From a virus: a DNA stretch of 64,000 nucleotides. Each line of letters opens with the position of its first letter. Positions within the stretch are counted from its first letter, which is position 1. A model generated the notes under the pieces. The model searched no databases. It was not told where the DNA came from and saw only the letters and a list, made by a program, of their open reading frames with translations. The DNA lies in UHGV virus genome UHGV-0039337, one strand, 5' to 3'. A program made the translations under genes and the position numbers. Shown here piece after piece: positions 3,754 to 37,441 of this stretch.

Positions 3754-4936
3754 CGAATTTGTTATCGTGAGGCTTTTTATCCTTCACTTCTACGGCTATT
3801 AACCGTAGTCCAGCATATTTTTTCGTGTGATTACTAACTGTGAACACGGTGCGGCCTCGTGGGTTCATTATACTCCTTACTTATAAGGTAAGGGATCAGA
3901 ACCTATGCGTTGCGCCTGGTCGATATTACTATCGTCGCTCACATTACTGCTCGCTAGCTTTTCAGCACCTTCGGTCTCGAGTAGGCTGTCTTTTGACTTT
4001 ACGCCATCCTCGCTTAATTCCGCACTAATACTCTCAGGATTTCTCACAGTCTTATCCTGAGACGGCAATATTCTAAATACTTATTATATTTTCTATCTAA
4101 ATAAACGGTAGCATCTTTATATATATAATCAAATATTTTTTTTAACGAATCAATTTTAAAAATATTTAACGAAGGAACTCTATTTTTATTATTATATATA
4201 TGAATATCATCTTCTTTTAATGTAGAAGTATTTATGATGGCGTTTTTTATATCTTCTAGTACTTGGAAATTATAAGAAACAATTGACCATTTGCAATTTC
4301 CTTTTGTTTTCTTTTTGCCAGATAAACTAAAAGATCCATCTCCATCAAAAACGCCTCTTATAAAATGATGCATAAATTCTTCTGGGATGTTTGGAATTTT
4401 CCATCCATAAGTTTTATTGTGCATTACACCGAGTTCTCTTAATCTATTTGCCATATATGGATCTTGAATAGTAAGTCTATAATATGCATATCCAGATACT
4501 ATCCTAGTGCTGATTTTATGTTCAGCTTCCATATCTGTTTTAAATTTTTCTATGTGTTCCTTATCTTTTATGCATACTTCTAAACTATTCTTTTTTGATA
4601 AATGACCATCAGCAAATATAAAGCCTAACCAATATGCACTTTTTTCATTCCATTCATCAAAGAATTTATTATTAAAATATTTTTTATTATGTTGTGCATG
4701 TTTGGTATTTATTCCTTTTTCGTTAAATTTTTTAGCTAAATAATTTCTATCTCTTTCTAATAATTCAGCTACTTTTGTTAAACTTAATCCATTATTATAT
4801 AATTTGATTGCTATGTTTAATTCTTCTTCAGATATTGATTTTCTAGGCATAGTTAAATTTCTCCTTTATAAAAATATATTTAACTATTTATTACCTAGAC
4901 ATGCCGTTTATTTATTTAAGCATTTAAAAATTATCT
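3754..4936 (-). mobile_element. group I intron (about 1.18 kb) interrupting the UvrD-like helicase within Walker A codons
   Basis: A split P-loop gene. A LAGLIDADG ORF starts about 86 nt into the insert, with its own RBS. A GC-richer structured block of about 290 nt (3754-4043) lies 3' of the ORF. The 5' exon ends in U (GGT) and the intron ends in G. The spliced product reads TATAGAG|KTRVIV, a valid [AG]x4GKT P-loop. Confidence 0.65.
4044..4850 (-). CDS. LAGLIDADG homing endonuclease (intron-encoded)
   Basis: 268 aa with two LAGLIDADG motifs (YWLGFIFADGHL and FIRGVFDGDGSF). Near-paralog of ORF 36563..37357. Confidence 0.85.
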   Translation of the reverse strand: MPRKSISEEELNIAIKLYNNGLSLTKVAELLERDRNYLAKKFNEKGINTKHAQHNKKYFNNKFFDEWNEKSAYWLGFIFADGHLSKKNSLEVCIKDKEHIEKFKTDMEAEHKISTRIVSGYAYYRLTIQDPYMANRLRELGVMHNKTYGWKIPNIPEEFMHHFIRGVFDGDGSFSLSGKKKTKGNCKWSIVSYNFQVLEDIKNAIINTSTLKEDDIHIYNNKNRVPSLNIFKIDSLKKIFDYIYKDATVYLDRKYNKYLEYCRLRIRL

Positions 4937-5038
4937 ACCTGCACCAGCAGTAGCAGTAGTTAAACTAGGTCCTTTTATATGCTTAACAGCTGCTTTTTGT
5001 CCGTCGTTTAATCCTTGCAGCAATTCTTCTGCATTCAT
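4937..5038 (-). CDS. UvrD-like helicase exon 1 (N-terminal about 34 aa)
   Basis: Translating the minus strand from ATG at about 5036-5038 (RBS GGAGG upstream) gives MNAEELLQGLNDGQKAAVKHIKGPSLTTATAGAG. This is the canonical UvrD N-terminus (L-N-x-x-Q-x-x-A-V ... AGAG). A stop follows 2 codons later inside the intron. Confidence 0.6.
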
Positions 5039-5081
5039 ACATTAATACCTCCTTTTAAATAATTTATTATACTATCACCTT

Positions 5082-5573
5082 CTAATAATGGTAATCTATT
5101 GTGTTTCCAAAATAATAAGTTATTTCTTTTGTGTCTGGCAAGTTTCTTACGAAGTTATCAATTGATCGTAAGACATTATTACAACAAATGTAAAATCCAA
5201 ATTTTTCATTTACTAATTGTTCTAAACTATATGCTGTAGTACTATTAATAAAATCATCTAGGTTCATTTCATCAACAGTTTGTTGTAATTTATTAAAGCG
5301 CTCGAAAAAATACATTCTTTTAAAATTTGGTGAAAATGTAATACTTTCTACTACTGTATCAGTACTATTTACCGTAAAGAATCTGTTGTATTCTTCCATG
5401 CATTCAAGAAACCATTCAATGTTTTCATTTCTATCTGTATTTTCATATACATAATCTGCTACTTGTCCAATAAACCATGCATGGTGGTTATCATAACCAA
5501 AATCATCCTCATCTAACCTATAATCATCTATGTTTCCTCTTGATTTTTCCAATTGAAATATTGTACTATGCAT
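5082..5573 (-). CDS. hypothetical protein
   Basis: 163-aa ORF, co-directional with neighbours. No motif recognised. Confidence 0.4.
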   Translation of the reverse strand: MHSTIFQLEKSRGNIDDYRLDEDDFGYDNHHAWFIGQVADYVYENTDRNENIEWFLECMEEYNRFFTVNSTDTVVESITFSPNFKRMYFFERFNKLQQTVDEMNLDDFINSTTAYSLEQLVNEKFGFYICCNNVLRSIDNFVRNLPDTKEITYYFGNTIDYHY

Positions 5574-5620
5574 AATTAATATAGCCAGTAGAATTAACTA
5601 CTGGCTCTCCTCCTCTTTTA

Positions 5621-5824
5621 TTAAAAATTGTTATTATTAGTAAGTTCATCCATAAGATCTCCACTATTATCATAATATTCAGGTTTTTCTGTTTGAGATT
5701 CTTCTACTCCTCCTACTGCTACTAATAATTCATTAAGAGTTTGTTCGCATACTCCTCCAGTAAAACCATTGGCTTCTAACTTAGCGTTACCATCTTTTCC
5801 TATTTTTACTTGTATAGTTCTCAT
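5621..5824 (-). CDS. DUF2997-like small protein
   Basis: 67 aa (MRTIQVKIGKDGNAKLEANGFTGGVCEQ...). Resembles the DUF2997 family (..IEI.VD..G...LE..GFTG..C..). Paired with the DUF1257-like ORF nearby. Confidence 0.4.
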   Translation of the reverse strand: MRTIQVKIGKDGNAKLEANGFTGGVCEQTLNELLVAVGGVEESQTEKPEYYDNSGDLMDELTNNNNF

Positions 5825-5847
5825 ATTAATTATTTCCTCCTTAAATT

Positions 5848-6075
5848 TTATAAAATATTTATATCATAAATTTTTGTTTTTCTAATTTCTATTGTATAAA
5901 GCATATCGTTTATTTCTGCATCAAAATAATTATTTTCATTTGCATTTGTTATATAACTAATTCCATTATCATCTAAGTATTTAATGTATTCTTCTTTTTT
6001 ATATCGTGCACTTTCTATATTAGCACATACGTCTACATTTATTTCGCCATCAAATGACTCTATTACTACATACAT
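5848..6075 (-). CDS. hypothetical protein
   Basis: 75-aa ORF. Confidence 0.3.
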   Translation of the reverse strand: MYVVIESFDGEINVDVCANIESARYKKEEYIKYLDDNGISYITNANENNYFDAEINDMLYTIEIRKTKIYDINIL

Positions 6076-6097
6076 TATATATTTCCTCCAGTTTTTA

Positions 6098-6119
6098 ATA
6101 AAAAATATAAGGGGCTAAT
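6098..6119 (-). terminator. rho-independent terminator (hairpin aaggggc/gcccctt plus T-run on minus strand)
   Basis: Perfect GC hairpin followed, on the minus strand, by ATATTTTTTATT. Lies downstream of ORF 6130..6531. Confidence 0.5.
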
Positions 6120-6129
6120 GCCCCTTATA

Positions 6130-6531: not shown

Positions 6532-6613
6532 AATTTTACCTCTTTCTTTTTATGCATAACGCATATTCTGCTTTGACCTAGTGGTGCAGACAACCACTTT
6601 ATTTTTTAATATT

Positions 6614-7009: not shown

Positions 7010-7045
7010 GCCTTCATCCTCCTTTTATAATTTATTTACATGCTA

Positions 7046-7618
7046 TTAATTATTTTTTGCTAATAATTTACTAGCAGATTGTACTGATTTAGTATTTATT
7101 TTTCTGTTAGATTTTTGTTTAGGTTCTTCTGATGCATATAATGCTCTACCTTTAGCCCATTCTTCTAAATCTTTTATCTTTTCTTGAGAAGATATAGTTA
7201 TAGGTATTACATCATTTTTAGCTGCTATTAAATCTGCTTTAGTTACTTCAAACTTCTTACCTTCTTTGGTACATCTTAAGAATGCTTTCTTCATGCTATT
7301 TTTAACTATTTGTTCTATTTCTGCTCCAGTATATCCTTGAGTTTCTACTGCTATATCTTTTATTATTTTTTCAGATACATCTAAACCTTTTTTGTTTATA
7401 TGGACTTTGAATATTTCTTTTCTTTCTTCTAAGTTCGGAGTATTGAAAAACCATATATTATCGACTCTACCGGCTCTAGTTAATTCTGGTGGTAAATCTT
7501 TTACATTATTACTAGTCATAATACAGAATATACCATTAGTATTATCATTTAACATTTCTAATATAGTTCCAAAGACTCTTGATAAAGTCCCTGAATCTGA
7601 AGCGTTTGAACTTGCATA
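7046..7618 (-). CDS. AAA+ ATPase, exon 2 (sensor-1, arginine finger, sensor-2 region)
   Basis: The in-frame upstream extension reads ...YASSNASDSGTLSRVFGTILEMLNDNTNGIFCIMTSNNVKDLPPELTRAGRVD. This is the AAA+ second-region-of-homology (EMDG-like, TSN sensor-1, RAGR arginine). Confidence 0.7.
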   Translation of the reverse strand, partial: YASSNASDSGTLSRVFGTILEMLNDNTNGIFCIMTSNNVKDLPPELTRAGRVDNIWFFNTPNLEERKEIFKVHINKKGLDVSEKIIKDIAVETQGYTGAEIEQIVKNSMKKAFLRCTKEGKKFEVTKADLIAAKNDVIPITISSQEKIKDLEEWAKGRALYASEEPKQKSNRKINTKSVQSASKLLAKNN

Positions 7619-8776
7619 CGTTTTGTTATCAATAGGCTTTTTATCCTATTTTCTGGGGCATTATACCCATTATGAACCTGTTAATTCAGGTTCCAGTCCA
7701 GCATATCTTTTCATGGATTAAATACCACACCATGGAACGGCCTCGTGGACACATTATATTCTACATAGTAGTTTCAGTGTCTATGCGTTGCGGCTGGTTA
7801 AGCTTTTAAACTTATCCTTCACCTCTGATTACGGACATTACCCGCTTTCCAGATTTTTTCCGTTCTAATAATTCTAAGACTTCTGTGGTTTCGTCTTAGA
7901 ACGGCTAATAAATCGTCCTTTTTCATCTCTTGAGATATATGGATGCTCAAGAGCATGACAGTCTTGACATAATGTGATTCCGTTATTAATATCATTAAAT
8001 TCTTTTGAATTTAATATCTTATCTATATTCATATCATATTTATTGCATATATCATATAATTGATTTACATGGTGAGCATGTAAGTTCTTTTTTGTTTTAC
8101 ATTTAGAACATTCATATTTGTCTCTTTTAAGGATCTTTGCTCTCCATTCATCATATTTTTCATGCGTGCGTAAATAATGCGAAATTTCTTTGTAAGTTTC
8201 TTTCTTATTGGTTCTATATTCATCATAGCATTCTTTACTACAAAAGTGCTTTTCGGCTCTATTATATGCATATTTATTTTTTTCAAATTCTTTATTACAA
8301 TTATCACATATTACAATTTGAGTTTCTTTTTTTGCATATTCAATTCTGCATTTTTTATTACAGAAATGCAGATTATGTTTATTTTTAACAGCTAGCACTT
8401 CTTTTCCACAATTATTACATTTAACAAATTCTTTATTTTTACGTTGTTCTGCTATTCTGCATTCAATAGAACAATATTTTGGAATTTGTCCACGCTTACT
8501 TTGTTTATTATAATATGATTCTTTAAGCTTAAAATTTTTACCACAATGTTGACAAATAAGCGAAATTTCTTTACTATATTTTACTTTTCCTTCTTGTTTT
8601 GCTAATTTAGCATGCTCTTTACAGCAATGAAATACTTTATTTTTGCTTTCATTGTATCTTGTAATGGTAATTTTAAACTCTTTATTACAATAATTGCATT
8701 TGACTATCATTATATATCACGTCCTTAATATATTTATTTATTAAGGTATTACCGTGAATGAACGATTTATTTATTT
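7619..8776 (-). mobile_element. group I intron (about 1.16 kb) in AAA+ ATPase gene between Walker B and sensor-1
   Basis: Exon 1 ends ...IDEVEKNLGG (GGT, ends in U). An HNH ORF starts about 66 nt into the insert. The 255-nt structured block 7619-7873 carries the same conserved core (ggcctcgtgg ... ctatgcgttgcg) as the UvrD and clpX introns. The intron ends in G (acG|TAT). Confidence 0.6.
7874..8710 (-). CDS. HNH homing endonuclease with multiple zinc-ribbon repeats (intron-encoded)
   Basis: 278 aa with repeated CxxC...CxxC modules. The C-terminus HAHHVNQ...N...LCQDCHALEH is an HNH motif. Confidence 0.75.
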   Translation of the reverse strand: MIVKCNYCNKEFKITITRYNESKNKVFHCCKEHAKLAKQEGKVKYSKEISLICQHCGKNFKLKESYYNKQSKRGQIPKYCSIECRIAEQRKNKEFVKCNNCGKEVLAVKNKHNLHFCNKKCRIEYAKKETQIVICDNCNKEFEKNKYAYNRAEKHFCSKECYDEYRTNKKETYKEISHYLRTHEKYDEWRAKILKRDKYECSKCKTKKNLHAHHVNQLYDICNKYDMNIDKILNSKEFNDINNGITLCQDCHALEHPYISRDEKGRFISRSKTKPQKS

Positions 8777-9811
8777 ACCTCCCAAGTTCTTCTCTACCTC
8801 ATCTATTAATAATACACAAGGAGCACAAGATTCAACTAAAGTTTTAACTTGAGCAATCTTTCTTTCTGATTCACCAACAAATTTAGTAAGGACAGAACTC
8901 ATATTTAATTTTAAAAATGGTACGTTTAATTCATTAGCTATAACTTCTGCCATATAACTTTTACTAGATCCTGGAACTCCTAATGCTAAATATCCTTTAG
9001 GCATATCAATACCTATTTCTCTAGCTTTAGGAGACATACATATTTTAGTTTCTTCGAACCATTCTTTAAATCTATGATTACCTCCTACATCATTCATTGT
9101 TGCTTTTGCCTCTTTGTAGTCTAACAAACCACTTGATTTTATCATAGATATTTTCTTTTCTTTTAACATTTCATAACTTAATTCATCATATTTAACATAT
9201 GATTCATCAAGAATTTCTATTATTTCTCTTCTACTATAACCTATAAAGTATTTATATACTTCTTCTGTATCTATTTCTTGATTTCTTACTTCAGCATAAT
9301 CATTTATTAATTCTTTTATATCTTCATCTGTTAATTCGTCATAATTTAATTCTTTAAACAAATGGTCTAATGTTGCATTTGATTGATGAGTAGGACTAAT
9401 AACTATAATAGGAGTATATATAGATTGTTTAAATTCTAATATTTCTCTGAATACTCTGGACCATGCATAATTTCCATATAATAAATCCATATCTTTTAAT
9501 ATGATAGCTGATAGTTCCATACTTTCTTTATCGCTTTGTATCTTATTATATAAAGATAATATAGCGGCACCACTAGTACCATTTTTAACTCCACTACTTT
9601 TATCTAGCATTTCTTTTACTATATTATTTTTACTATCAGTATTTAATTTATATATACCGGAAGATGGTTCAAAATCATATATAACATCTATACCTTCTTC
9701 TTTTAGAGTATTTATAACAGAAGCTACAACTTCTTTTTCTTGTTCAGATTTAATCCATATAGCTTCTTTTTTTATTTCTAATAATAAAGCTAATTCTTTA
9801 TTAAATTTCAC
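8777..9811 (-). CDS. AAA+ ATPase, exon 1 (N-domain plus Walker A/B)
   Basis: About 345 aa with Walker A GVPGSSKS, FVGESERKI, and Walker B VLLIDEVEK. Confidence 0.7.
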
Positions 9812-17702: not shown

Positions 17703-19595
17703 TTAATTACATTTACTGTATCCACAATTTACACAACTAATACATCCTTCAGTTTTTAATAGTGTTTTTTCTTCACATTCAGGGCATGTCATGTAATAAT
17801 CATTTGTTTCTTTAGCTGTTTCTGTTTTTTTAGTTTCTAATGGTTTAGACTTTTCTTTTTGTTGTATTGTTTTAATTTCTATTTCAGTATCATCATCAAA
17901 ATCTATAAATTCTTCCATGAATTGATTATGAGCATTTACTAATGCATAAGCTACTGCTGATGCACATGATGAACCTTTAGAAGTTGTTTTGTCTTTATAT
18001 TTAGAAATACTATATGATGGACATACTAAAGCTGATTCTAATTGATCTGCTATTTCTTCTACTGGTGCTCCTTTTCTTGCACATAGACTAGTAAGTCTAG
18101 ATACTGCATTTAATAAAGATAAACAACCACCTTTGCTTCCTTTATCTAAGAACACTTCACGTAATTCTCCAGTTTCAGGACAGAAATAGAAAGTACAATG
18201 CAAACTTCCACATCCAGTTTTAAGTTTTCTCTTAATACCGATTACGGAATCATCAACTAATATAGTATCTCCAAATTTAAGCATAGATTTAGCTTTTTCT
18301 ATTGGAGTTAGATTCGACTCTTTTTCTTCTTTTTCATTACTTACTGTAAGAATACCTGCTCTTTCACAGTTATTTCTATATATAGTTAATCCTTTAACTC
18401 CTTTTTCGGCACCATATAAATAAATTTCTTTTATTTGTTGTGGCGTAACATCTTCTGATAAATTGACTGTAGATGAAATCGATGCGTCTATATATTTTTG
18501 AATAGTAGCTTGTACATCTACTCTATTAAATGGATCTAATTGGTGTGTTGATATAAAGTATTCAGGTAAATCATTAGTATTACCTGTAACTTTTCTATAG
18601 TCTTCAACTATTTTAGCTTCTACTGTATAGTAAACATCTTCATCATGTAAGCTTTCAGTTTTTCTAGTATAACTATAAGCAAAATTAGGTTCTACTCCAT
18701 ATGAAGTATTAAGTAATCCAGCTACAGTTCCAGTAGGTGCTATTGTAGTTAATTGGCTATTAAATAGTCCATTTTGTAGCGCAGCTTTTAGTGTATTTGT
18801 TTCGTAATAATTTAGATTTCCAACTAAATTTTGTATTATATCTGATTTAAATGTTTTGTCTGCATCATAATTTTTAAATGGTGTGTTGCCTTCTATTTTT
18901 GCATAATCAGCACTAGCTATTATACTATTATATAATAAGGCAGTACCTATTGTTTCTATCACTAATAATGATTCTGACGAACCATAAGTTATTCCTAATT
19001 TTATTAAAGTATCTGCCAATCCCATTATTCCAAGTCCTATTTGTCTTAAATCGCCTACGGTTTTACGTTGTTCTTCTAATGGATGTAAAGGCATACCTTC
19101 TATTAATACATCATTTAATGCAAATATAGCTTTATGAATTACTTTTTTAAATTCATCGTAATCAAATCTAGCGTTTGGTGTAAATGGATCAATTATAAAC
19201 TCACTTAAATTAATAGCACCAAGCAAACATGAACCTCCTGCAGGAAGAGGTTCTTCAGCACATGGATTCACACCTACATAATTAAAATCATCATAATATT
19301 GCATTAAGTTATAATTTTGTATTTTATCCCAATAAAGAATTCCTGGTTCTGCCATTCTCCAATTGTTTAATGCTAGTTTATCCATGATTTTATTAGCGTC
19401 GATTAATTTTACTATAGTATTTCCATCTTCTAATTTAAATGTACAAGGATAACTCTCTTTATTTTTAACAGCTTCAATAAAATTACTATTTATCATAACT
19501 GAAATATTTGCTTTAGTTATGGCATTTAAATCTGTTTTTATATCTATAAATTCTTCAATGTCTGGGTGGCTTACATCCATGGATATCATGAGTGC
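17703..19595 (-). CDS. ribonucleotide reductase, class II-like (NrdJ-type) catalytic subunit, exon 2
   Basis: In-frame upstream extension ALMISMDVSHPDIEEFI (RNR RRGA-L-x-VxHPDI). Active-site finger NPCAEEPLPAGGSCLLGAINL. C-terminal CxxC...CxxC zinc ribbon and no RVCGY glycyl-radical motif, so not class III. Confidence 0.75.
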   Translation of the reverse strand, partial: ALMISMDVSHPDIEEFIDIKTDLNAITKANISVMINSNFIEAVKNKESYPCTFKLEDGNTIVKLIDANKIMDKLALNNWRMAEPGILYWDKIQNYNLMQYYDDFNYVGVNPCAEEPLPAGGSCLLGAINLSEFIIDPFTPNARFDYDEFKKVIHKAIFALNDVLIEGMPLHPLEEQRKTVGDLRQIGLGIMGLADTLIKLGITYGSSESLLVIETIGTALLYNSIIASADYAKIEGNTPFKNYDADKTFKSDIIQNLVGNLNYYETNTLKAALQNGLFNSQLTTIAPTGTVAGLLNTSYGVEPNFAYSYTRKTESLHDEDVYYTVEAKIVEDYRKVTGNTNDLPEYFISTHQLDPFNRVDVQATIQKYIDASISSTVNLSEDVTPQQIKEIYLYGAEKGVKGLTIYRNNCERAGILTVSNEKEEKESNLTPIEKAKSMLKFGDTILVDDSVIGIKRKLKTGCGSLHCTFYFCPETGELREVFLDKGSKGGCLSLLNAVSRLTSLCARKGAPVEEIADQLESALVCPSYSISKYKDKTTSKGSSCASAVAYALVNAHNQFMEEFIDFDDDTEIEIKTIQQKEKSKPLETKKTETAKETNDYYMTCPECEEKTLLKTEGCISCVNCGYSKCN

Positions 19596-20537
19596 CGATT
19601 GTACCGTTTCTTTCGAAATACTTTAACATCGTTTTATACGATCGGTCTAGACTATATCTTCAACTCATATTCTTTTACCGAATATGAGTTGCTTGGTACT
19701 TCCGGTCAGGATTTTCACCTAATTACCCGTACTCTACTCGGTTATTCTCTTAGATATTTCTTCTAAGATATCCTTTCGATAGTCGTTTGACTTTATTTTA
19801 TATTATATAGCTTCATAAGTTATTATATAGTTTTTTAATTTTCCTCTACTTGGCATAGGTTTTTTACCCTCTGCATATAATCCTAAAACCGTTATATTTC
19901 CCGCTGAATATCCAAAGTATCTTGCTAATTCTGATAGTGATACGAATTCTTTAATAAAGTTTCCTTCTCTATCATAAAGGTATACATGCTTATTGCAAGT
20001 ACAACAATCATCACCGTATGCTTGCTGTGTGTTTTCGGATATTGTGCCCCATTTTAGGTTTGTATAATGATTATTTAATTTATTGTTATCTAAATGTAAT
20101 ACTATAGGGTAATCATTTGGATTTTCTAAATAAGTCATAGCGACTAATCTATGCACCCTAAAATGTCTTCTTATTCCATCTTTACATACTAACAATAAAT
20201 CTTCATAACCATCTTTCATTATTCTTGTCGATAAAAACCTTTTTAATATTTTTGAATATATTTGCCCATCTTCGGTTATACTATAATAATCTTGTTTTAT
20301 ATTGAAGCAATCCAAATCTTTTATAAAAATCATCTCCTAATAATTTTTATAAGAAATGGCATAATATAAAATCTTAGCACAGGATTAGCATACCTATATG
20401 GCTTTAGCCTCCCCTGTTAGCACACTCATTAATAACCATTTCCTGTTATTACTAATATACGCTGAGTGTACACCCTAGTTTTTAGGTTCACCAAGTTTTT
20501 CATTATATATCACTATATAAAGGCGGCCGATATTTTA
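19596..20537 (-). mobile_element. group I intron (about 0.94 kb) in RNR gene at the RRG|A codons
   Basis: Exon 1 ends QKGRRG (GGT, U). Exon 2 begins ALMISMD after tcG. An HNH ORF lies in the middle, flanked by structured segments of about 205 nt (19596-19802 and 20334-20537). Confidence 0.65.
19803..20333 (-). CDS. HNH homing endonuclease (intron-encoded, HNH_3 type)
   Basis: 176 aa with RVHRLVAMTY...HLDNNKLNNHYTNLKWGTISEN, typical of phage HNH homing endonucleases. Confidence 0.75.
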   Translation of the reverse strand: MIFIKDLDCFNIKQDYYSITEDGQIYSKILKRFLSTRIMKDGYEDLLLVCKDGIRRHFRVHRLVAMTYLENPNDYPIVLHLDNNKLNNHYTNLKWGTISENTQQAYGDDCCTCNKHVYLYDREGNFIKEFVSLSELARYFGYSAGNITVLGLYAEGKKPMPSRGKLKNYIITYEAI

Positions 20538-20984
20538 ACCGCGTCTACCTTTTTGACCTATAAGTCCTGTTGTCATAGAATATAAATCCATAAAAGATAC
20601 TGCTCCTGATGTGGTTTTGGCTGCATTATGTACTGTAGCTTTATTTGGTCTAAGTTTTGATATATCAATTCCCACACCTCCACCATAGGAGAAAGTTCTA
20701 GCTAATTTTTTTGCCGTATCAAATATACTTTCTAAATTATCTTCAGGTGGTTCTAAAACATAACAATTAGAATAAGTTACTTTTGTTCCATTTTTTTGTA
20801 ATCCTCTATTAGCAAGTATTCTGCCTCCATATATAAATTTTTTATCAAGTATTAATTGCTGTACTTCTTTATCCCCGTTAGTTACTCTTTCTAAAAATTC
20901 ATCAAATGTTTCATTATTATATCTGTATTTTCTTTCATATTCACTTACAGATAGTTTTGATGTTAGCCATTCTTTTATATCCAA
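20538..20984 (-). CDS. ribonucleotide reductase exon 1 (N-terminal 149 aa)
   Basis: FSYGGGVGIDISKLRP ... SGAVSFMDLY ... QKGRRG are the conserved RNR N-terminal motifs. The ORF terminates right after RRG. Confidence 0.75.
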
Positions 20985-28356: not shown

Positions 28357-28752
28357 CTATAATATCGTATAATCTTCTTCAGACATTATATATTGTCTTT
28401 TTTCTGTATTCATTACTTTGCTATTCATACACATAGAAACTATTTTATTAGCTTCTTCTGCGTCTTCAATTGTTATTTTAATTAGTGTTCTATGTTCTGG
28501 ATTCATAGTTGAATCCCATAAACCTTCTGCTGATAATTCACCTAATCCTTTTAAATAAGTTATATTTAATTTTTTATTAGGATATTGTTGTTTAATAGAA
28601 TTTAATTCAGCATCATCTATAGCATATAACGTAGTATTTTTATCTACTATAATCTTATATAATGGTGGGCATGATAAATATAAATAACCTTCTTCTATTA
28701 TAGGTCTAAAATATCTATAAAATAATGTTATATACAAAGTAGCTATATGATA
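28357..28752 (-). CDS. gyrB: type II topoisomerase subunit B (GyrB-like), exon 3 (C-terminal about 131 aa)
   Basis: In-frame extension GYHIAMYITLFYRYF...LSCPPLYKI...YLKGLGELSAEGLW matches the GyrB C-terminus (GSHIRTLLLTFFYR ... PPLYK ... YKGLGEM). Confidence 0.75.
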   Translation of the reverse strand, partial: YHIATLYITLFYRYFRPIIEEGYLYLSCPPLYKIIVDKNTTLYAIDDAELNSIKQQYPNKKLNITYLKGLGELSAEGLWDSTMNPEHRTLIKITIEDAEEANKIVSMCMNSKVMNTEKRQYIMSEEDYTIL

Positions 28753-30013
28753 ACCCGATTACACCCTCGGTTTCCCGATATTTATCAGGGGTCTAGACTA
28801 TACCTTCGCCATTTCAGGCGCACTGAACGTAGTCGTTGGACTCCTCCTGTTCGGAGTCGGCTGCTGATTTTCCATTAATTCACCCTTAGCACGTATTTAA
28901 TAATACGCTTTTGTCTCAGCTTAGGTAATCCTCAATACTTTTTTCTGCTTTCGCAACATTCATATAAGTTTGTTTCATCTTATATTGTAGTGATTAAGGC
29001 TTTAGGAATTCCCAGCAAGCGGTCAGTGTAATAATCCTATAGGTTATTATTCCCTATAAGACGACTATATTTATAAATTAATTATATTTTAAATAGAGAT
29101 TTAAATAACGTTCAAATTTGCGTTCCATATATATAGTACAATCTAAATATAACCAACTCATTATTTGATATACTTGATTATCACCACATAATCTTAAACT
29201 TTGAACGTTTCCGTCTCCGTTTTTATGTCTTTTTTGTAATTTTACATTCTCTTTATTTAAAATTGTTTTAAGCGTTTCTAAAAATTCTGTAGTACCTAAT
29301 ATACTAATATCATAAGTATGATATTTTTTATCTCCTGATATTGACAGAGATCCATCTCCATCAAAATATCCTCTAATAAAATGTCTTTGTAATTCTTTTG
29401 GTACTATATCCTCTGAAGGAAATAAACAATGATTGGTTTTATCAAGGCTAAAACCTTTATTAACTAAATCTTGATACATCTTTTTGCTAGTTATAACCAT
29501 TTTTGACTCTCTTGTAATACAATCAAAACTTTTATTGTAATGTTCATAATCTCTTATTGGATACGTAGAGTCTATATCTTTTTTAAATTTTTCTATCATA
29601 TTACGATCTTTTGTGGCTAACGTTAATCCTATTTCATTCCCTCTATTTGTTATATATCCATCAGCCATTAAAAAACCCAACCAATAAGCTTTATGTTCTG
29701 TATCAATAACTTCAAAGTAATTATCATTTACTTTATTTCTTCTTAAATCATCAGGACTTTTCTTTTGATATAGTCCTGCTTTAATTAAAACTGGATAAAT
29801 AGTTTGAGGTTTTCTATCTTTTAACGATTCTTTATTCTCACAAATCCATTTTACGCTATGTCCCTCTTTATATTTATTGCATATCCATTTTTTATCTTCT
29901 TCAGAAAATGATTTTCTTATTCTTTTTGTCAATATATTCACCCCAATATTTAGTTTCTTTATCTAAATATTACGGTGAACGTAGACGCTTATAATAATTA
30001 TTTATAAATCTTA
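28753..30013 (-). mobile_element. group I intron (about 1.26 kb) in gyrB at the Toprim DxDxD|G codons
   Basis: Exon 2 ends DADVD (GAT, U) followed directly by a stop. Exon 3 begins GYHI after tcG. A LAGLIDADG ORF starts about 72 nt into the insert. A 325-nt structured block 28753-29077 lies 3' of it. Confidence 0.65.
29078..29941 (-). CDS. LAGLIDADG homing endonuclease (intron-encoded)
   Basis: 287 aa with YWLGFLMADGYI and FIRGYFDGDGSL. Same family as the UvrD- and clpX-intron HEGs. Confidence 0.85.
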   Translation of the reverse strand: MNILTKRIRKSFSEEDKKWICNKYKEGHSVKWICENKESLKDRKPQTIYPVLIKAGLYQKKSPDDLRRNKVNDNYFEVIDTEHKAYWLGFLMADGYITNRGNEIGLTLATKDRNMIEKFKKDIDSTYPIRDYEHYNKSFDCITRESKMVITSKKMYQDLVNKGFSLDKTNHCLFPSEDIVPKELQRHFIRGYFDGDGSLSISGDKKYHTYDISILGTTEFLETLKTILNKENVKLQKRHKNGDGNVQSLRLCGDNQVYQIMSWLYLDCTIYMERKFERYLNLYLKYN

Positions 30014-31194
30014 ATCAACATCGGCATCGCTCATTATTATTATCTTATGATATCGTAAGTTATCTATATTAAAATCTTCACCTATACCACACTCTAAACT
30101 ATATAATATATCTTTTAATTTATCAGATGATAATACTTTATCTAAAGTCATTTCTTCTACATTTGGTATTTTCCCGAATACAGGTAATATTGCTTGAGTA
30201 TTCTTGTCACATGCGGTAGTTGCTGTAGAAGCTGCACTATCACCTTCAACTAAAAATATTTCGCAAGCTTCAGGATCTTTACTAGCACATTTTACTAATT
30301 TTTCAACTTTTTTATTAGCGAAATTTTTATTCTTTCTTGCAGCTTCTTTTGCTTTATAGGCGGCTTCTCTGATCTTGTTTGATTCAATAACTTTATTAAG
30401 TATATTATCTTTATCATTCGGTAGTTTATCAAATTGATCTTCACAAAACTCCTTTACTTCACTATACAATATGCTTGCTATTACAGGCATATTTAAATAA
30501 TCTTTTCCTTGTCCTATATAGTTAGGATCTGGTACCTTGACACTAACTACTGCTATTATACCTTCACGTGTGTCTTCTGCTGTTAATTGTGTTTTAGATT
30601 TAGGATATTCATTTTCAAAGCAATCTTTAACAGCTGTAGCTATACCACGTTTAAATCCTGTTATATTAGAAGATTTACCATCGGTATTTATAACATTATT
30701 AGTAAACGCTATTATATTATCACTATAAGCCTGAGTCCAAGCAAAAGCTACAGATATTTCACACGATTTATCATTATCCATTTCAACTGATTTAGTTAAG
30801 AACCAAGGATCATGAATACTTTCTTTGTTAGCTGTAAGTTCTTCAACATATGCTTTAACACCCTCTGGATAATTATAGATTTCATGTATGTTATAGTCCC
30901 CATATTCTATATCTACTTTAATAGTAAGTTCAGGATTAAGATAGCATATTTGTTTCATTCTGCTATTAATAGCTGGTATATTAAAATCATCTTTATCAGC
31001 CCATATTTCAGGATCTGGTTCACATTGTATAAGAGTCATAGTAAAGTCTTCACGTGATATTTCTTCTACTTCGTGTAATTTATGAGTCACTAATCCTTGT
31101 TCAAATTCCATATCATATACTTTACCACCAGTATATATTTCAACATGGAACCATTTAGATAAGAAGTTTATACATGATGCTCCTACGCCATTTA
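30014..31194 (-). CDS. gyrB: GyrB-like subunit, exon 2 (ATPase C-part, transducer, Toprim start)
   Basis: The frame extends upstream of the first Met to NGVGASCINFLS (GyrB HGVGVSVVNALS). Contains EGVKAYVE, DTREGIIAVVSVKVPDPNYIGQGKD, and Toprim EIFLVEGDSA ... KIIIMSDADVD. Confidence 0.75.
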
Positions 31195-31869
31195 CAATAG
31201 TTCACATAGGTTCGCTATTCCTATGCCGCACTATTACGTGCAGCCTCTAGTTTTCACTAGGGATCGGACTATATCATCACCCTTTAATAAGGGGTTCTCC
31301 ATTTCCATTTAATAGGTAATTAAGAGCCTTATTACGGCTCACCTAACCGCTTGGCTGTACTCTACTCACTTCTGTTACTATCAGAATCGCTTTCGATAGT
31401 CTCTGAACTTTCATTTATTCCATTTAAATAACCAAATTCTTGTTCTTTTTCTCTTCTAAAATCAATACACATCTGTTTAGCTTGTTCATAACCATATTTT
31501 TTACACGATCTTGATATTCTACATTTTTTATGTTCATTATCTTTTATTTCTGCAATCCAAGAATCTCTACTTTTATCATATCTTACACCTTTTATTCCGC
31601 TTGTGTTACATTCTCTTAATGATGTATTTTTTAAATTTTCGTGTCTTGTTGTTATTCTTAAATTGTTTTTACGATTATCCAGACCGTTATGATTTAAATG
31701 ATCTACAACAATGTCGTAACCTTCTACGTCTAATATTAATCTGTGCAAATATATTGGTTATATAAAATAAATGTTTAGCTGCTGATTGCCATATGCTTAT
31801 GCACTTAGGTTTCCAGCAATTAAAAGAATTTTTCGATACACATTACTGCGTAAAGGGACTAAATAGTTA
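31195..31869 (-). mobile_element. group I intron (about 0.68 kb) in gyrB ATPase-domain codons (..SAGL|NGVG..)
   Basis: Exon 1 reads K-S-A-G-L then a stop 2 codons later. Splicing GGAT|TAAATGGC restores AGLNGVGAS, which is colinear with GyrB GGLHGVGVS. The 5' exon ends in U and the intron ends in G. An HNH-AP2 ORF sits in the middle, with structured flanks 31195-31361 and 31749-31869. Confidence 0.6.
31362..31748 (-). CDS. HNH homing endonuclease with AP2-like DNA-binding domain (intron-encoded)
   Basis: 128 aa. DHLNHNGLDNRKNNLRITTRHENLKN (HNH_3) followed by GVRYDKSRDSWIAEI (AP2-like). Confidence 0.7.
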   Translation of the reverse strand: MHRLILDVEGYDIVVDHLNHNGLDNRKNNLRITTRHENLKNTSLRECNTSGIKGVRYDKSRDSWIAEIKDNEHKKCRISRSCKKYGYEQAKQMCIDFRREKEQEFGYLNGINESSETIESDSDSNRSE

Positions 31870-32236
31870 ATCCAGCTGATTTAACACCTTCTTCAAATTT
31901 AGTACCAGCTTTTAATCTAGACATACATAATTCAGCTATGGTACATCCTGGTATTTCATCTGATTCTTCTGTAGGTAACGCACCTGCGCTATCTGTTACT
32001 GTTATCCATCCTTGTTTATCTATATTTACTGTTATCTCTTTCTTGGTATATAAATGACTACTTTCGTCATTAACTAGAATATCTACACCATTATCTACTA
32101 ATTCATATATACAATAGTCTTTATTTGGTATATACATTCCCGGTCTAAGTCTTACGTGTTCTCTGTCGTCGAGAAGTTTAAAATCATCTGCTTGTCTTAC
32201 TTTTTTAACCATTTTAGGTTTTTTAATTTTACTCAA
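31870..32236 (-). CDS. gyrB: GyrB-like subunit, exon 1 (N-terminal ATP-binding about 122 aa)
   Basis: DDFKLLDDREHVRLRPGMYI, ELVDNGVD, ITVTDSAGALP, AELCMSRLKAGTKFEEGVKSAGL match the GyrB N-terminal motifs (RKRPGMYIG, E.VDN..DE, V.DNGRGIP, HAGGKFD..YKVSGGL). Confidence 0.75.
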
Positions 32237-32251: not shown

Positions 32252-32527
32252 CTATATATCTTGTTCTAACCATTTTGAATAATCAAACATTTTACTACTA
32301 TCGTGATTTATTTCTAATAATATTTTTTTAAAATATTTATATAATGCATATTCATCATATTCATTTAATATAACAACAGGTATATTTACTATTTTGTATT
32401 CCACTTTATTTATTGTTAATTCTATATGAAAAAATTCTACACCTTTTTCTTTTAACAATTCTTTCATAAAGTTAGTATCTAATTCAGTATATTCTCCTGA
32501 TATTGTTTTTGTATATGTTCTAATCAT
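32252..32527 (-). CDS. hypothetical protein
   Basis: 91-aa ORF. Confidence 0.3.
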   Translation of the reverse strand: MIRTYTKTISGEYTELDTNFMKELLKEKGVEFFHIELTINKVEYKIVNIPVVILNEYDEYALYKYFKKILLEINHDSSKMFDYSKWLEQDI

Positions 32528-35222: not shown

Positions 35223-35341
35223 TAATCATTTCTCCTTTTATTATATAATATTATTTTTTTACTAGATTTTTTTATCATTATAGTGTATCATAATAGTATA
35301 ATCCCTTTTAAGTGATTACATTACTCCATACTATAATAATA

Positions 35342-35378
35342 AGGGGCGATCCGTTTTGCGGTCGCCCCTCTCTCTTTC
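35342..35378 (-). terminator. GC-rich hairpin terminator downstream of clpX exon 2
   Basis: aggggcgatccg/cggtcgcccct perfect hairpin. T-rich sequence follows on the minus strand. Confidence 0.45.
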
Positions 35379-35380
35379 TA

Positions 35381-36250
35381 TTATTCAATTGCTTCTTTTG
35401 CTGTTTCTCTTAATATATCTACTGTTAAATCTTCACGTACTATTACTTTTTTTACTGTAGGATCTCCTGGAACCTCAAATTTGGTTTCAAATAATATATC
35501 TTCCATTACTGTTCTTAATGCTCTAGCACCCATTTTTCTTTCTTTTGCTTTTTGTGCTATTTTAGGCAATGCACCTTCTTCTATGTCAAAATCTATACCA
35601 TCCATTTTAAATTCTTCTTTATATTGTTTTAATAAAGCATGTTTAGGTTGAGTTAGAATCTTAACCATGGCTTCTTCACTTAATTCATGATATACAGCTA
35701 ATAATGGACATCTGCCTATAACTTCTGGTATTATACCAAATTCTACTAAATCATCTGGTATGACTTGAGATATAACATTATTATAATCCATTTCTCCTTT
35801 TGATTCTGGCTTACCATTAAACCCTATGCCTACAGATCCTTTTTTAAGTCTTTTATTTATTATTTCTTCTAGACCTACAAATGCTCCACCTAATATAAAT
35901 AATATATTAGTAGTGTCTATTTTAACGCTTTTAGAATCTAATTTATTTAATTTAACGTCCATTTCGCAGCCTTCAATCATTTTTAGTATAGATTGTTGTA
36001 CTGCTTTACCGTTAACATCTTTGTTATCTCCTCTTGCATCAGATGCTTTAATTTTGTCAAATTCATCTATAAATACTATTCCTTTTTGTGTTTTTTCTAC
36101 GTCTCTACCTGCTGCGATATATAAATCTTTTATCATATCCTCTGTATCACGTCCAACATATCCTGTGCTTGAGAAAGAACTGGCGTCTTGTATAGTAAAT
36201 GGTATATCCATACAAGAACATATAGCTCTTATGGTTTCACTTTTCCCACT
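35381..36250 (-). CDS. clpX: ClpX ATPase, exon 2
   Basis: In-frame extension SGKSETIRAICSCMDIPFTIQDASSFSSTGYVGRDTE...GIVFIDEFDKI aligns with ClpX [37 protein letters not shown]...GIVYIDEIDKI. Confidence 0.8.
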   Translation of the reverse strand, partial: SGKSETIRAICSCMDIPFTIQDASSFSSTGYVGRDTEDMIKDLYIAAGRDVEKTQKGIVFIDEFDKIKASDARGDNKDVNGKAVQQSILKMIEGCEMDVKLNKLDSKSVKIDTTNILFILGGAFVGLEEIINKRLKKGSVGIGFNGKPESKGEMDYNNVISQVIPDDLVEFGIIPEVIGRCPLLAVYHELSEEAMVKILTQPKHALLKQYKEEFKMDGIDFDIEEGALPKIAQKAKERKMGARALRTVMEDILFETKFEVPGDPTVKKVIVREDLTVDILRETAKEAIE

Positions 36251-37441
36251 CGTTCGTTATTAGCGCATAGTTTTTTATCTATGCCTCTGGGCCATTACAG
36301 CCATTTTCATCGGTGTGTTAATTCACACTCAGTCTAGCGTACTTGTTTACGTAATTTACTTGGACAAAACGTAGGACGGCCTCTTGGTGCATTATTTCAG
36401 CACTACGCGTTGCGCCTGACGTGTTGACATATCAACACTCACTATATCACTATAGCTTATCCACTTTTATAGTGGCGCCTTCGGGCTCGAATACACTGTA
36501 TGCAATTTACAATCATACTTTACGTGATCTTCGCTTAATTCCATCCTCATAATCTAGAGTCTTCATTGTCCTTTTGGCTCTAGACGGCAGTAATCTAAGT
36601 ATTTTTTATATTTTCTATCTAAATATATTGTAGCATCTTTATATAACCATTTTAAAAATGCTTCTAACGCTTTAGTACTTGATATATTTAATTCAGGTAT
36701 TTTATAGTCATATTCATAAATTCTAATATGATCTATGGTTTCTTCAACATTATATTTAATAGTTTCTATTAATGATTCTAAAACTGTTCTATCATAGCAT
36801 ATAATTCTAAAAGTAGTACTACCTTTAGTTCTTATGTTTAGGTTTCCATCTCCATCGTATAATCCTCTTATAAAATGATTCATATATTCATTAGGTATAT
36901 CTGGAACAACCCATCCATATGTTTTGTTATGCACTACTCCTAGTTCTTTTAATTTTGTTGCTATAATTTTATCTCTTATATTTATTCTATAATAATCAGT
37001 TCCATTTATTGTTTTTATTCCTACTTTGTGGCTGCTTTCTATATCTGCTTTAAATTTTTCTATGTGTTCTTTATCTTTTATACATATGTCGAGTCCTCCA
37101 TCTTCTGATAAATATCCATCAGCAAATATAAAACCTAACCAATAAGCACTTTTTTCATTCCATTCATTAAAGAAATTACTATTAACTGATTTTTTATTAT
37201 AATGTTGAACTATATTAACACCTGCGGCTTTCATTCTAATAGAAAGCGTACCTCTGTCTCTTTTTAACTGTTTTGCTATTTTAGTAATACTTAAGCCTTC
37301 ATTAAACATATTAGTGGCTTGTTGTATCTCTTCATCTGATATCCTCAAGATAATCACTCCATATTGTGTATTTATCTCTATATTACCGCTACCAGATGAT
37401 CTAATAGAAAATATTGTAAATTTTACTTAGATTATTTGTTT
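36251..37441 (-). mobile_element. group I intron (about 1.19 kb) in clpX inside the Walker A codons (GPTG|SGKS)
   Basis: Exon 1 ends GPTG (GGT, U) then KQII-stop. A LAGLIDADG ORF starts about 84 nt into the insert. The 312-nt structured block 36251-36562 shares the core (ggacggcctcttggtg ... ctacgcgttgcgcctg) with the UvrD and AAA+ introns. Exon 2 begins after acG. Confidence 0.65.
36563..37357 (-). CDS. LAGLIDADG homing endonuclease (intron-encoded)
   Basis: 264 aa with YWLGFIFADGYL and FIRGLYDGDGNL. Over half its residues look identical to ORF 4044..4850 by eye. Confidence 0.85.
   Translation of the reverse strand: MIILRISDEEIQQATNMFNEGLSITKIAKQLKRDRGTLSIRMKAAGVNIVQHYNKKSVNSNFFNEWNEKSAYWLGFIFADGYLSEDGGLDICIKDKEHIEKFKADIESSHKVGIKTINGTDYYRINIRDKIIATKLKELGVVHNKTYGWVVPDIPNEYMNHFIRGLYDGDGNLNIRTKGSTTFRIICYDRTVLESLIETIKYNVEETIDHIRIYEYDYKIPELNISSTKALEAFLKWLYKDATIYLDRKYKKYLDYCRLEPKGQ

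What the first reader, a model, noticed from the sequence alone, without database searches (positions are those of the whole stretch)
3754..37441. Six HEG-bearing group I introns in five essential genes within 34 kb
Splice-site positions follow the group I rule (5' exon ends in U, intron ends in G), and each junction regenerates a universally conserved motif: the P-loop of UvrD, Walker B to sensor-1 of an AAA+ protein, RRGA of RNR, the GyrB ATPase and Toprim DxDxD, and the P-loop of ClpX. About 7 kb of 34 kb is intron. I am not aware of introns previously noted in clpX or in a PIN-less AAA+ gene of this type.
Basis: partly seen in the sequence, partly recalled or inferred. Interest (0 to 1): 0.85.

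Follow-up and report, generated by a model that had tools for sequence, protein, structure and literature searches.

The report
Six mobile group I introns confirmed
Five replication and housekeeping genes of an uncultured human-gut jumbo phage are interrupted by six self-splicing-type (group I) introns carrying homing endonuclease genes; this is real and well supported, but such intron-rich phages are already known.

Summary
On the minus strand, uvrD, an AAA+ ATPase gene, a class II ribonucleotide reductase gene, gyrB (twice) and clpX are interrupted by inserts of 675-1258 nt, 6,407 nt in all. Each follows an exon T, ends in G and carries a LAGLIDADG or HNH endonuclease ORF. In-silico splicing gives stop-free proteins. 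Intron-less alleles in sister phages match every junction: clpX is 100% identical in protein and differs at 2 of 1272 nt; the AAA+ protein is 99% identical; gyrB and RNR are colinear.

The ribozyme cores form two families. I3, I4 and I5 are T4-td-like and match Rfam Intron_gpI at 26-41 bits (below the gathering score of 50), and only when short stretches are searched. I1, I2 and I6 get no Rfam match. They belong to a widespread phage intron family that includes the annotated AR9 gyrA introns. Its P3-P9 fold, including the P3/P7 pseudoknot, is supported by covariation (92% of cells paired against 70% when shuffled). A model built without the window sequences finds exactly these three.

Intron content differs between near-identical strains, and five or more RNR sites are used across them. 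Splicing itself was not tested. These are new members of a known kind; the clpX and AAA+ sites appear to be unreported. Interest is moderate to low.

The parts
3754..4936 (-). I1: group I intron (family A) in uvrD, between G and K of the P-loop (TATAGAG|KT), 1183 nt
   Evidence: Boundaries. The intron-less uvrD of relatives L124/L125 reads TATAGAGKTRVI. The core matches model R1 at 138.5 bits, E 1e-39.
4044..4850 (-). I1 homing endonuclease ORF, LAGLIDADG, 268 aa. It lies in the P1 loop and its 3' end overlaps the guide sequence (GCC at 4066-4064) and the P2 hairpin (4060-4031).
   Evidence: Pfam LAGLIDADG_3 at 33.2 bits against a cut-off of 22.5. 51% identical to the I6 endonuclease. Sequence; guide-sequence logic.
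3754..4027 (-). I1 ribozyme core, from the P3 5' strand to the terminal G (P3-P4-P5-P6-P7-P7.1-P3'-P8-P7'-P9-terminal hairpin)
   Evidence: Full-length match to R1 and covariation counts on alignment A2. Rfam gave no hit.
1972..3753 (-). uvrD exon 2
   Evidence: the UvrD-helicase domain covers residues 10-264, spanning the junction at residue 34.
4937..5038 (-). uvrD exon 1 (34 codons)
7619..8776 (-). I2: group I intron (family A) in the AAA+ ATPase gene, between Walker B and sensor 1 (LGG|YAS), 1158 nt
   Evidence: The intron-less allele P0001 (535 aa, 99% identical) reads ...EKNLGGYASSNAS. L154 DNA is colinear across the junction. R1 scores 152.1 bits, E 1e-43, over 7617-7867.
7874..8710 (-). 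I2 endonuclease ORF, 278 aa, with zinc-finger repeats and a C-terminal HNH-like motif. Its 3' end overlaps the guide sequence GCC (7905-7903).
   Evidence: Pfam HNH_2 scores only 19.8 bits, below the cut-off of 21. The HAHH...CQDCHALEH motif was read.
8777..9811 (-). AAA+ exon 1
7046..7618 (-). AAA+ exon 2
19596..20537 (-). I3: group I intron (td-like family B) in the class II RNR gene at GRRG|A, 942 nt. The guide sequence GCCGC (20527-20523) pairs with exon GCGGU.
   Evidence: Rfam Intron_gpI matches 19789..19626 at 25.9 bits, E 2.5e-4. The site is uninterrupted in L166.
19803..20333 (-). I3 endonuclease ORF, 176 aa, HNH_3 + NUMOD1, placed after P6
   Evidence: HNH_3 27.0 bits against cut-off 24.8; NUMOD1 35.5 bits against cut-off 22.8.
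20538..20984 (-). RNR exon 1
17703..19595 (-). RNR exon 2
28756..30013 (-). I4: group I intron (family B core) in gyrB Toprim at DADVD|G, 1258 nt. The proposed guide sequence GUCG (29065-29062) pairs with exon UGAU.
   Evidence: Rfam Intron_gpI matches 29085..28773 at 35.2 bits, E 1.5e-7, over the full model. gyrB is uninterrupted in L159. Guide sequence.
29078..29941 (-). I4 endonuclease ORF, LAGLIDADG, 287 aa
   Evidence: Pfam LAGLIDADG_3 at 49.5 bits. 31% identical to the I1 endonuclease.
31195..31869 (-). I5: group I intron (family B) in the gyrB ATPase domain at SAGL|NGVG (splitting the Leu codon), 675 nt. P1 is GGAU|UAA paired with UUAGUCC, with U.G at U31870. A 6-bp P10 is possible.
   Evidence: Rfam Intron_gpI matches 31879..31660 at 41.5 bits and 31439..31245 at 36.4 bits. 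P1/P10. gyrB is uninterrupted in L159.
31362..31748 (-). I5 endonuclease ORF, 128 aa, HNH_3 (matching only the 3' part of the profile) + AP2. It has a TTG start and no clear ribosome-binding site, so it may be truncated.
   Evidence: HNH_3 profile positions 19-45 of 46; AP2 at 51.7 bits.
31870..32236 (-). gyrB exon 1
30014..31194 (-). gyrB exon 2
28357..28755 (-). gyrB exon 3
36251..37441 (-). I6: group I intron (family A) in the clpX P-loop at GPTG|SGKS, 1191 nt. The guide sequence GCCG (36588-36585) pairs with exon CGGU.
   Evidence: P0121 is 100% identical to the predicted spliced ClpX. The intron-less clpX in L157 differs at 2 of 1272 nt. R1 scores 78.4 bits, E 9e-22, over 36251-36548.
36563..37357 (-). 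I6 endonuclease ORF, LAGLIDADG with an N-terminal HTH, 264 aa (261 aa if it starts at the TTG at 37348)
   Evidence: Pfam LAGLIDADG_3 at 29.3 bits. Paralogue of the I1 endonuclease, 51% identical, E 2e-97.
37442..37843 (-). clpX exon 1
35381..36250 (-). clpX exon 2

Best explanation
The six inserts are mobile group I introns, each carrying its own homing endonuclease gene, in an uncultured human-gut jumbo phage of about 270-278 kb and 27.6% GC.

Inferred mechanism. Each host gene is transcribed through its intron. The intron RNA folds into the group I core. P1 presents the exon-terminal U, paired to a G of the internal guide sequence. An exogenous guanosine attacks the 5' splice site, and the freed exon then attacks after the terminal G. 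The exons are joined to give the intact UvrD, AAA+, RNR, GyrB and ClpX reading frames.

At the DNA level, the endonuclease cuts intron-less alleles of co-infecting relatives. Repair copies the intron together with some flanking exon sequence. This would explain why intron content differs between near-identical strains and why synonymous differences cluster at some junctions.

Two ribozyme lineages are present.
- I3, I4 and I5 have the classical P/Q/R/S core, like T4 td. In I3 and I5 the ORF lies after P6.
- I1, I2 and I6 belong to an IA-like family with an extra hairpin between P7 and P3'. In these, and in I4, the ORF lies in the P1 loop and its last codons overlap the guide sequence and P2.

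Shown here: boundaries, folds, endonuclease families and strain polymorphism. Inferred: actual splicing, homing and endonuclease activity.
For: Junctions. All six show U...G boundaries and stop-free spliced ORFs. Domain and PDB alignments are continuous across each junction. Intron-less alleles match:
- AAA+: P0001, 99% identical over 535 aa, with L154 DNA colinear.
- clpX: P0121, 100% identical to the predicted product; L157 differs at 2 of 1272 nt.
- gyrB: uninterrupted in L159, L160 and L162.
- RNR: the I3 site is uninterrupted in L166.
- uvrD: uninterrupted in L124 and L125.

Fold. Rfam RF00028 matches I4 (35.2 bits, E 1.5e-7), I5 (41.5 and 36.4 bits) and I3 (25.9 bits). For family A, on a MAFFT alignment of 45 sequences:
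- 51 proposed pairs are 92.4% paired, against 70% when shuffled and 32-42% when slid.
- 39 pairs show compensatory changes.
- P3 is 100% paired, though the sequences were chosen for a P3 complement.
- P7 is 98% paired with an AU/GC swap, and P3 and P7 form the pseudoknot.
Model R1, built from 35 IMG/VR sequences and no window sequence, hits only I2, I1 and I6 in the window, at 152, 138.5 and 78 bits, all full length. R1 also hits the two AR9 gyrA introns, which are annotated as a 3-piece join, at 132 and 126 bits.

P1. I3 pairs GCGGU with GCCGC. I5 pairs GGAU with GUCC and has a possible 6-bp P10. In family A the guide sequence (U)GCCG lies just 5' of P2 and pairs with exon GGU. It covaries with the exon in relatives: CACGGU/GCCGUG, AAGUGGU/GCCGCUU, and in I4 UGAU/GUCG.

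Exon -1 base. It is T in all intron-bearing alleles. It is C or A in intron-less alleles at the I5, I3 and gyrA sites.

Endonucleases. Pfam LAGLIDADG_3, HNH_3 + NUMOD1 and HNH_3 + AP2 all score above their cut-offs.
Against: - There are no RNA data, so splicing is not shown.
- Every Rfam score is below the gathering score of 50. I1 gets no Rfam match at all, and the whole-window Rfam runs found nothing.
- P1 of I1 and I2 has only 3 contiguous exon pairs.
- The I2 endonuclease is below the Pfam HNH threshold, and the I5 endonuclease looks truncated.
- The only intron-less uvrD alleles found are in distant relatives (56% amino-acid identity).
Confidence: 0.9

Rival explanations
1. The genes are truly split. 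Free-standing endonuclease genes inserted into them, and the halves are translated separately and assemble into working enzymes, as in nrdA split by mobE in Aeromonas phage Aeh1 or T4 gp39/gp60 (recalled from knowledge).
For: ORF lists show separate ORFs with possible internal start codons, for example ATG at 3720 in uvrD and ATG at 36211 in clpX.
Against: A group I core with an exact U...G boundary lies next to every endonuclease ORF. The breaks fall inside P-loops and a DxDxD motif. The downstream ATGs lie 11-13 codons past the junction, so the conserved residues KTRVIVARAQY and SGKSETIRAICSC would be lost. Intron-less alleles are exactly colinear.
Confidence: 0.03
2. The inserts descend from group I introns but no longer splice, or only some of them do, so one or more host genes are inactive in this strain.
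For: P1 is short for I1 and I2. The I5 endonuclease looks truncated. Rfam scores are below the gathering score.
Against: The same intron-bearing arrangement recurs in several independent assemblies of 111-278 kb. Core helices are intact and score highly against the family model. The exons carry no disabling mutations. Endonuclease decay with a retained ribozyme is a normal stage of the homing cycle and does not block splicing (established knowledge).
Confidence: 0.06
3. The inserts are inteins, group II introns or another kind of mobile element, not group I introns.
For: LAGLIDADG and HNH endonucleases also occur in inteins and in some group II introns (knowledge). Group II introns were recently reported in phages (PMC12350094, title and abstract only).
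Against: The inserts have stop codons and are out of frame with their hosts, so they are not inteins. The structured parts are about 250-320 nt with P3-P9 topology and P/Q/R/S elements. No group II family was matched in Rfam.
Confidence: 0.01

Closest known systems
T4 td / nrdB / nrdD introns and the introns of SPO1-like and K-like (Herelleviridae) phages: phage group I introns with classical P/Q/R/S cores
   Same: I3, I4 and I5 carry AAUCAGCAGC (Q), CAACGACUA (R) and GAUAUAGUC (S). They match Rfam Intron_gpI. The I4 core resembles unannotated gaps in Staphylococcus, Enterococcus, Listeria and Brochothrix myophages. In I3 and I5 the endonuclease ORF lies after P6, as in td (the td arrangement is from knowledge). 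RNR is a classical intron host.
   Different: The host-gene sites differ (class II RNR at RRG|A; gyrB ATP-lid and Toprim). Scores are below the Rfam gathering score. In I4 the ORF lies in the P1 loop. Subgroup (IA2?) was not tested because no subgroup models were available.
Bacillus jumbo phage AR9 / PBS1 / Goe21 gyrA introns (annotated as a 3-exon join in KU878088)
   Same: They belong to the same ribozyme family as I1, I2 and I6. Model R1 scores 132 and 126 bits on AR9 and 141 bits on Goe21. They share the GGU| 5' splice site, the UGCCGU guide sequence and the GAUAACA...G 3' end. Goe21 has the same layout of exon, endonuclease ORF, core and exon.
   Different: The AR9 copies lack endonuclease ORFs. 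The host genes here are uvrD, an AAA+ ATPase gene and clpX. The phage is only distantly related (GyrA at most about 35% identical to any record in the phage collection).
Intron-rich gut phages: Jug jumbo phages and crAss-like phages
   Same: Many group I introns and endonucleases interrupt essential genes, and content varies between close genomes. Jug phages average 18.5 introns per genome, and splicing was confirmed by metatranscriptome reads for 37 of 76 predicted introns (PMC12880540). A family A core is present next to terL in crAss-like phage cr7_1.
   Different: This is a different phage lineage, about 270 kb and 27.6% GC (Jug phages are 360-402 kb and infect Bacteroides). Different genes are hit. 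Here most introns keep full endonuclease ORFs.

Membership tests
Group I intron | The 5' exon ends in U, which pairs with a G of an internal guide sequence (P1) | tested here: met
   All six exons end in T. I3: GCGGU/GCCGC. I5: GGAU/GUCC, also seen in the Rfam alignment. I4: UGAU/GUCG. I6: CGGU/GCCG. I1 and I2: GGU/GCC, only 3 contiguous pairs. The guide sequence covaries with the exon in relatives.
Group I intron | The intron ends in G (omega G) | tested here: met
   All six end in G. The boundaries are fixed by intron-less alleles.
Group I intron | Conserved core: P4-P6 and P3-P8 domains with the P3/P7 pseudoknot | tested here: met
   Family A: 9 helices, 92.4% of cells paired, 39 of 51 pairs with compensatory change, P3 and P7 crossing. 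P3 pairing is partly by selection of the sequences, but its position is constant in 59 of 60 loci. Family B: Rfam alignments cover P1-P9.
Group I intron | Guanosine-binding site in P7 (a G-C pair next to a bulged nucleotide) | tested here: inconclusive
   P7 is GCAUA/UAUGC, with invariant G160-C290 next to a one-base bulge (C159 or U291, depending on register). The function cannot be read from sequence.
Group I intron | Score at or above the Rfam RF00028 gathering threshold (50 bits) | tested here: not met
   I5 41.5 and 36.4 bits; I4 35.2; I3 25.9. E-values of 4e-9 to 2.5e-4 apply only to the short stretches searched. I1 has no hit. I2 and I6 were not searched alone. The whole-window runs were empty. 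This reflects the limited reach of one general model for IA-type phage introns with ORF insertions, so it does not count against the fold.
Group I intron | Precise excision that restores the host reading frame | tested here: met
   Done in silico only, and matched to natural intron-less alleles.
Group I intron | GTP-dependent self-splicing of the RNA | not testable with these tools
   Needs in vitro transcription and splicing, or RNA-seq.
Family A phage introns (AR9 gyrA type) | Full-length match to a covariance model built from independent members | tested here: met
   R1 scores I2 at 152.1, I1 at 138.5 and I6 at 78.4 bits, over model positions 1-214.
LAGLIDADG homing endonuclease | Pfam LAGLIDADG domain above the curated cut-off | tested here: met
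   I1 33.2, I4 49.5 and I6 29.3 bits against a cut-off of 22.5. Two LAGLIDADG-like motifs are visible in each protein.
HNH homing endonuclease | Pfam HNH domain above the curated cut-off | tested here: inconclusive
   I3 HNH_3 27.0 and I5 HNH_3 25.6 bits against a cut-off of 24.8, so both are met; the I5 match covers only profile positions 19-45. I2 HNH_2 at 19.8 bits is below the cut-off of 21.
Intein | In-frame insertion with no stop codons, translated together with the host protein | tested here: not met
   Stop codons follow each 5' exon within 0-4 codons.

The most novel reading that the evidence does not exclude
I1, I2 and I6 may represent a large and under-catalogued lineage of IA-like phage group I introns. 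The pattern search stopped at its limit with at least 120 IMG/VR contigs. Members occur in crAss-like, Aeromonas, Bacillus and gut jumbo phages. The Rfam model does not detect the lineage, and neither would databases seeded from that model. Most members with known junctions use a near-constant guide sequence (U)GCC(G) and so sit after GGU glycine codons. That would bias the lineage towards glycine-rich nucleotide-binding loops, and could explain the apparently unreported jumps into the P-loops of uvrD and clpX and next to Walker B of an AAA+ ATPase.
Probability: 0.3. Interest if true: 0.5.

Novelty: new member of a known kind. Interest (0 to 1): 0.35.

Why it matters
Practical value. Gene callers split these five genes into 11 fragments plus six endonuclease ORFs. 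Recognising the introns restores full-length UvrD, AAA+, RNR, GyrB and ClpX, and shows that this phage encodes an intact ClpXP pair.

It also shows that the standard Rfam group I model, run genome-wide, misses all six introns. Three of them belong to a family it does not score at all, so intron counts in phage metagenomes are probably underestimates.

The near-isogenic strains with and without each intron form a natural data set for studying homing, exon co-conversion and target-site immunity in gut phage populations. clpX, for example, differs at 2 of 1272 nt apart from the 1.2-kb intron.

None of this changes what is known about how group I introns work.

Tried and rejected
- Rfam on the whole window (gathering threshold), and on 1-40000 at E<=10, found no intron. 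Hits appeared only when stretches of 350-970 nt were searched, so the speed filters were the cause. The I1 core alone still gave nothing.
- Megablast of 3000-9000 against the phage collection found no match.
- The search for related loci with the spliced ClpX and AAA+ proteins found no confirmed relatives in IMG/VR. They were replaced by protein searches and exact-protein contig look-ups.
- An exact look-up of the 140-aa ORF at 17041-17463 failed, probably because the gene caller used a different start.
- I first read ACGGCA...UGCCGU as a P2 stem enclosing the endonuclease ORF. I dropped this because ORF-less relatives (AR9, L132) lack the 5' partner, and because UGCCGN covaries with the exon end, which makes it the guide sequence.
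- I considered that family A always follows GGU. This is refuted as a rule by the second RNR intron of L164, which follows GCU.
- A scan for the S element AGATATAGTC found only the I3, I4 and I5 cores above chance, and R1 found no fourth family A copy. No further introns were detected in the window.
- The GC-richer gap at 61213-61785 has no Rfam match.

Full report
**What is in the sequence.** All genes in 1-40 kb lie on the minus strand. Five genes are broken by inserts that contain an endonuclease ORF and a GC-richer block of 250-320 nt (0.40-0.46 GC against 0.276 for the window). Reading the frames on either side gives these boundaries:

| Intron | Host gene | Coordinates (minus strand) | Length |
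|---|---|---|---|
| I1 | uvrD | 4936..3754 | 1183 nt |
| I2 | AAA+ ATPase | 8776..7619 | 1158 nt |
| I3 | class II RNR | 20537..19596 | 942 nt |
| I4 | gyrB Toprim | 30013..28756 | 1258 nt |
| I5 | gyrB ATPase domain | 31869..31195 | 675 nt |
| I6 | clpX | 37441..36251 | 1191 nt |

The total is 6,407 nt. In each case the exon ends in T and the insert ends in G.

**The junctions restore the proteins.** The joined exons are stop-free and in frame.
- One Pfam domain spans each junction: UvrD-helicase 10-264, AAA 275-403, Ribonuc_red_lgC 72-555, Toprim 434-534, AAA_2 124-316.
- Alignments to solved structures run through GPTG|SGKS (ClpX), SAGL|NGVG and DADVD|G (GyrB) and RRG|A (RNR) without gaps.
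- The AAA+ junction lies in a variable loop, with a 2-residue gap against VAT.

**Natural intron-less alleles confirm every junction.**
- AAA+: a 535-aa protein 99% identical to the predicted AAA+ product exists, reading ...EKNLGGYASSNAS.... Its contig (L154) is about 94-96.5% identical to the window in DNA and lacks exactly I2.
- clpX: a 423-aa ClpX 100% identical to the predicted product occurs on contigs of up to 278 kb. In L157 the uninterrupted clpX differs from the window exons at 2 of 1272 nt.
- gyrB: uninterrupted in L159, L160 and L162, and identical across both junctions.
- RNR: the I3 site is uninterrupted in L166.
- uvrD: uninterrupted only in more distant relatives (56% identity), reading TATAGAGKTRVI.
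- The base before the junction is T in all intron-bearing alleles. It is C (I5 site) or A (I3 site) in the intron-less alleles. The window's own intron-less gyrA has GGC where strain L158 has GGT followed by an intron.
- Synonymous differences cluster around the I2, I5 and I3 junctions. This is what exon co-conversion or selection on the endonuclease target would produce; that reading is an inference.

**The ribozymes: family B (I3, I4, I5).** These carry the classical Q, R and S elements (AAUCAGCAGC, CAACGACUA, GAUAUAGUC).
- Rfam Intron_gpI was silent in the whole-window runs but matches when short stretches are searched.
- I4: full model, 35.2 bits, E 1.5e-7.
- I5: two halves on either side of the ORF, 41.5 and 36.4 bits.
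- I3: the 3' half, 25.9 bits.
- All are below the gathering score of 50.
- The I4 core resembles unannotated gaps in many Herelleviridae genomes.

**The ribozymes: family A (I1, I2, I6).** The I1 core gets no Rfam match, but the three cores align with each other.
- A motif taken from them (GCAACGCRTAG...CCANGAGGCC) occurs in at least 120 IMG/VR contigs.
- A MAFFT alignment of the three cores with 42 such sequences supports nine helices in group I order: P3, P4, P5, P6, P7, an extra hairpin (P7.1), P3', P8, P7', P9 and a terminal hairpin.
- 92.4% of cells are paired, against 70% when shuffled and 32-42% when the partners are slid. 39 of 51 pairs show compensatory changes. P3 and P7 cross, forming the pseudoknot.
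- Caveat: the sequences were chosen for having a P3 complement, so the 100% pairing of P3 is partly by construction. However, the complement sits at the same place next to the J3/4 AAUUAAGC in 59 of 60 loci.
- A covariance model built from 35 IMG/VR sequences only finds exactly three places in the window: I2 at 152 bits, I1 at 138.5 bits and I6 at 78 bits. All are full length and end at the predicted 3' splice sites.
- The same model hits the two gyrA introns of Bacillus phage AR9, annotated as a three-piece join, and also Goe21 gyrA, Aeromonas phage CF8 and a crAss-like phage. Family A is therefore a known phage intron type that Rfam misses.

**P1 and the position of the ORFs.**
- I3 and I5 have the guide sequence at intron nt 11 (GCGGU/GCCGC; GGAU/GUCC with a possible 6-bp P10), and their ORFs lie after P6.
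- In family A, the conserved (U)GCCG just upstream of the P2 hairpin pairs with the exon end GGU. It extends and covaries in relatives: CACGGU/GCCGUG in L158 gyrA, AAGUGGU/GCCGCUU in L132 uvrD. In I4 the pair becomes UGAU/GUCG.
- The ORFs of I1, I2, I4 and I6 therefore lie in the P1 loop, and their last codons overlap the guide sequence and P2.
- P1 of I1 and I2 has only three contiguous exon pairs. This is the weakest point of the model.

**The endonucleases.**
- I1, I4 and I6 encode LAGLIDADG proteins. Those of I1 and I6 are 51% identical, so the two introns are sister elements now sitting in the P-loops of two different ATPases.
- I3 encodes HNH_3 + NUMOD1.
- I5 encodes a short HNH_3 + AP2 protein that may be truncated.
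- I2 encodes a zinc-finger protein with an HNH-like motif that scores below the Pfam cut-off.

**Population context.** The window matches ENA contig ERZ27287489:k141_249877. Sister assemblies of 270-278 kb come from human gut samples. No cultured relative is close: GyrA is at most about 35% identical to any record in the phage collection. Strains sharing identical ThyX or ClpX proteins differ in intron content:
- clpX occurs with and without I6.
- gyrB occurs with both introns or with none.
- gyrA has an intron only in L158.
- RNR has introns at RRG|A (the window), AEP|G (L154), NPCA|E (L164 and L168) and apparently YGG|R and |GVGIDIS (L166).

**Comparison with what is known.** Phage group I introns with endonucleases are classical. 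Introns in gyrB and gyrA are reported for S. aureus jumbo phages and for AR9 (bioRxiv 10.1101/2020.12.14.422802). Gut Jug phages carry 18.5 group I introns per genome on average, with splicing seen in metatranscriptomes (PMC12880540). More than half of viral group I introns are classed as IA2 (PMC11835236). A text search found no report of an intron in clpX. That is absence of a hit in one library, not proof.

**Verdict.** The observation and the interpretation are both right. The finding adds new insertion sites and a well-documented polymorphic population, not a new kind of element. Splicing remains to be shown experimentally.

Noticed in passing
window 43983-44063 (-): A tRNA-like gene scores 47.7 bits with Rfam but is not called by ARAGORN. 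It has a normal acceptor stem, D arm and T arm, and an encoded CCA. Its anticodon loop region is 16 nt (AAUAAUUUAUUUUAUC) instead of 7. It could be a tRNA with a 9-nt insert or a tRNA mimic.
   Followed up: partly
window 61213-61785: A 570-nt stretch has no ORF of 70 aa or more and is GC-richer than its surroundings (0.35). It has no Rfam match and no match to the family A model. Its nature is unknown.
   Followed up: partly
window 15163-15219: A near-perfect inverted repeat (UAGGGAGCCAAUAA...UUAUUGCUCCCUA) scored weakly on both strands as a plastid psbA 3'UTR hairpin. It is probably just a strong hairpin or terminator between or inside small ORFs.
   Followed up: no
L154 1-560; L164 4305-5378; L166 2902-4967; L158 16455-17936: Sister strains carry other introns that the window lacks: RNR at AEP|G, NPCA|E, YGG|R and before GVGIDIS, and gyrA after HG. 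Across strains, RNR is hit at five or more different sites.
   Followed up: partly
window 8711-8776 (I2, upstream of the endonuclease start): A long hairpin (CACGGUAAUACCUUAAU...AUUAAGGACGUG) contains the AAGGA ribosome-binding site of the endonuclease ORF. It could limit endonuclease translation from the precursor RNA.
   Followed up: no
window 35381-38489: clpP (37872-38489) lies directly upstream of the interrupted clpX, so the phage encodes its own ClpXP pair. The window also holds a PARG-like macrodomain gene (32524-33312) and a PIN-PhoH gene (40238-41494).
   Followed up: no
window 30200-30300 (gyrB exon 2): Relative to strain L159, the window's GyrB lacks about 25 residues in a variable region after ...HDPWFL. 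This indel is unrelated to the introns.
   Followed up: no
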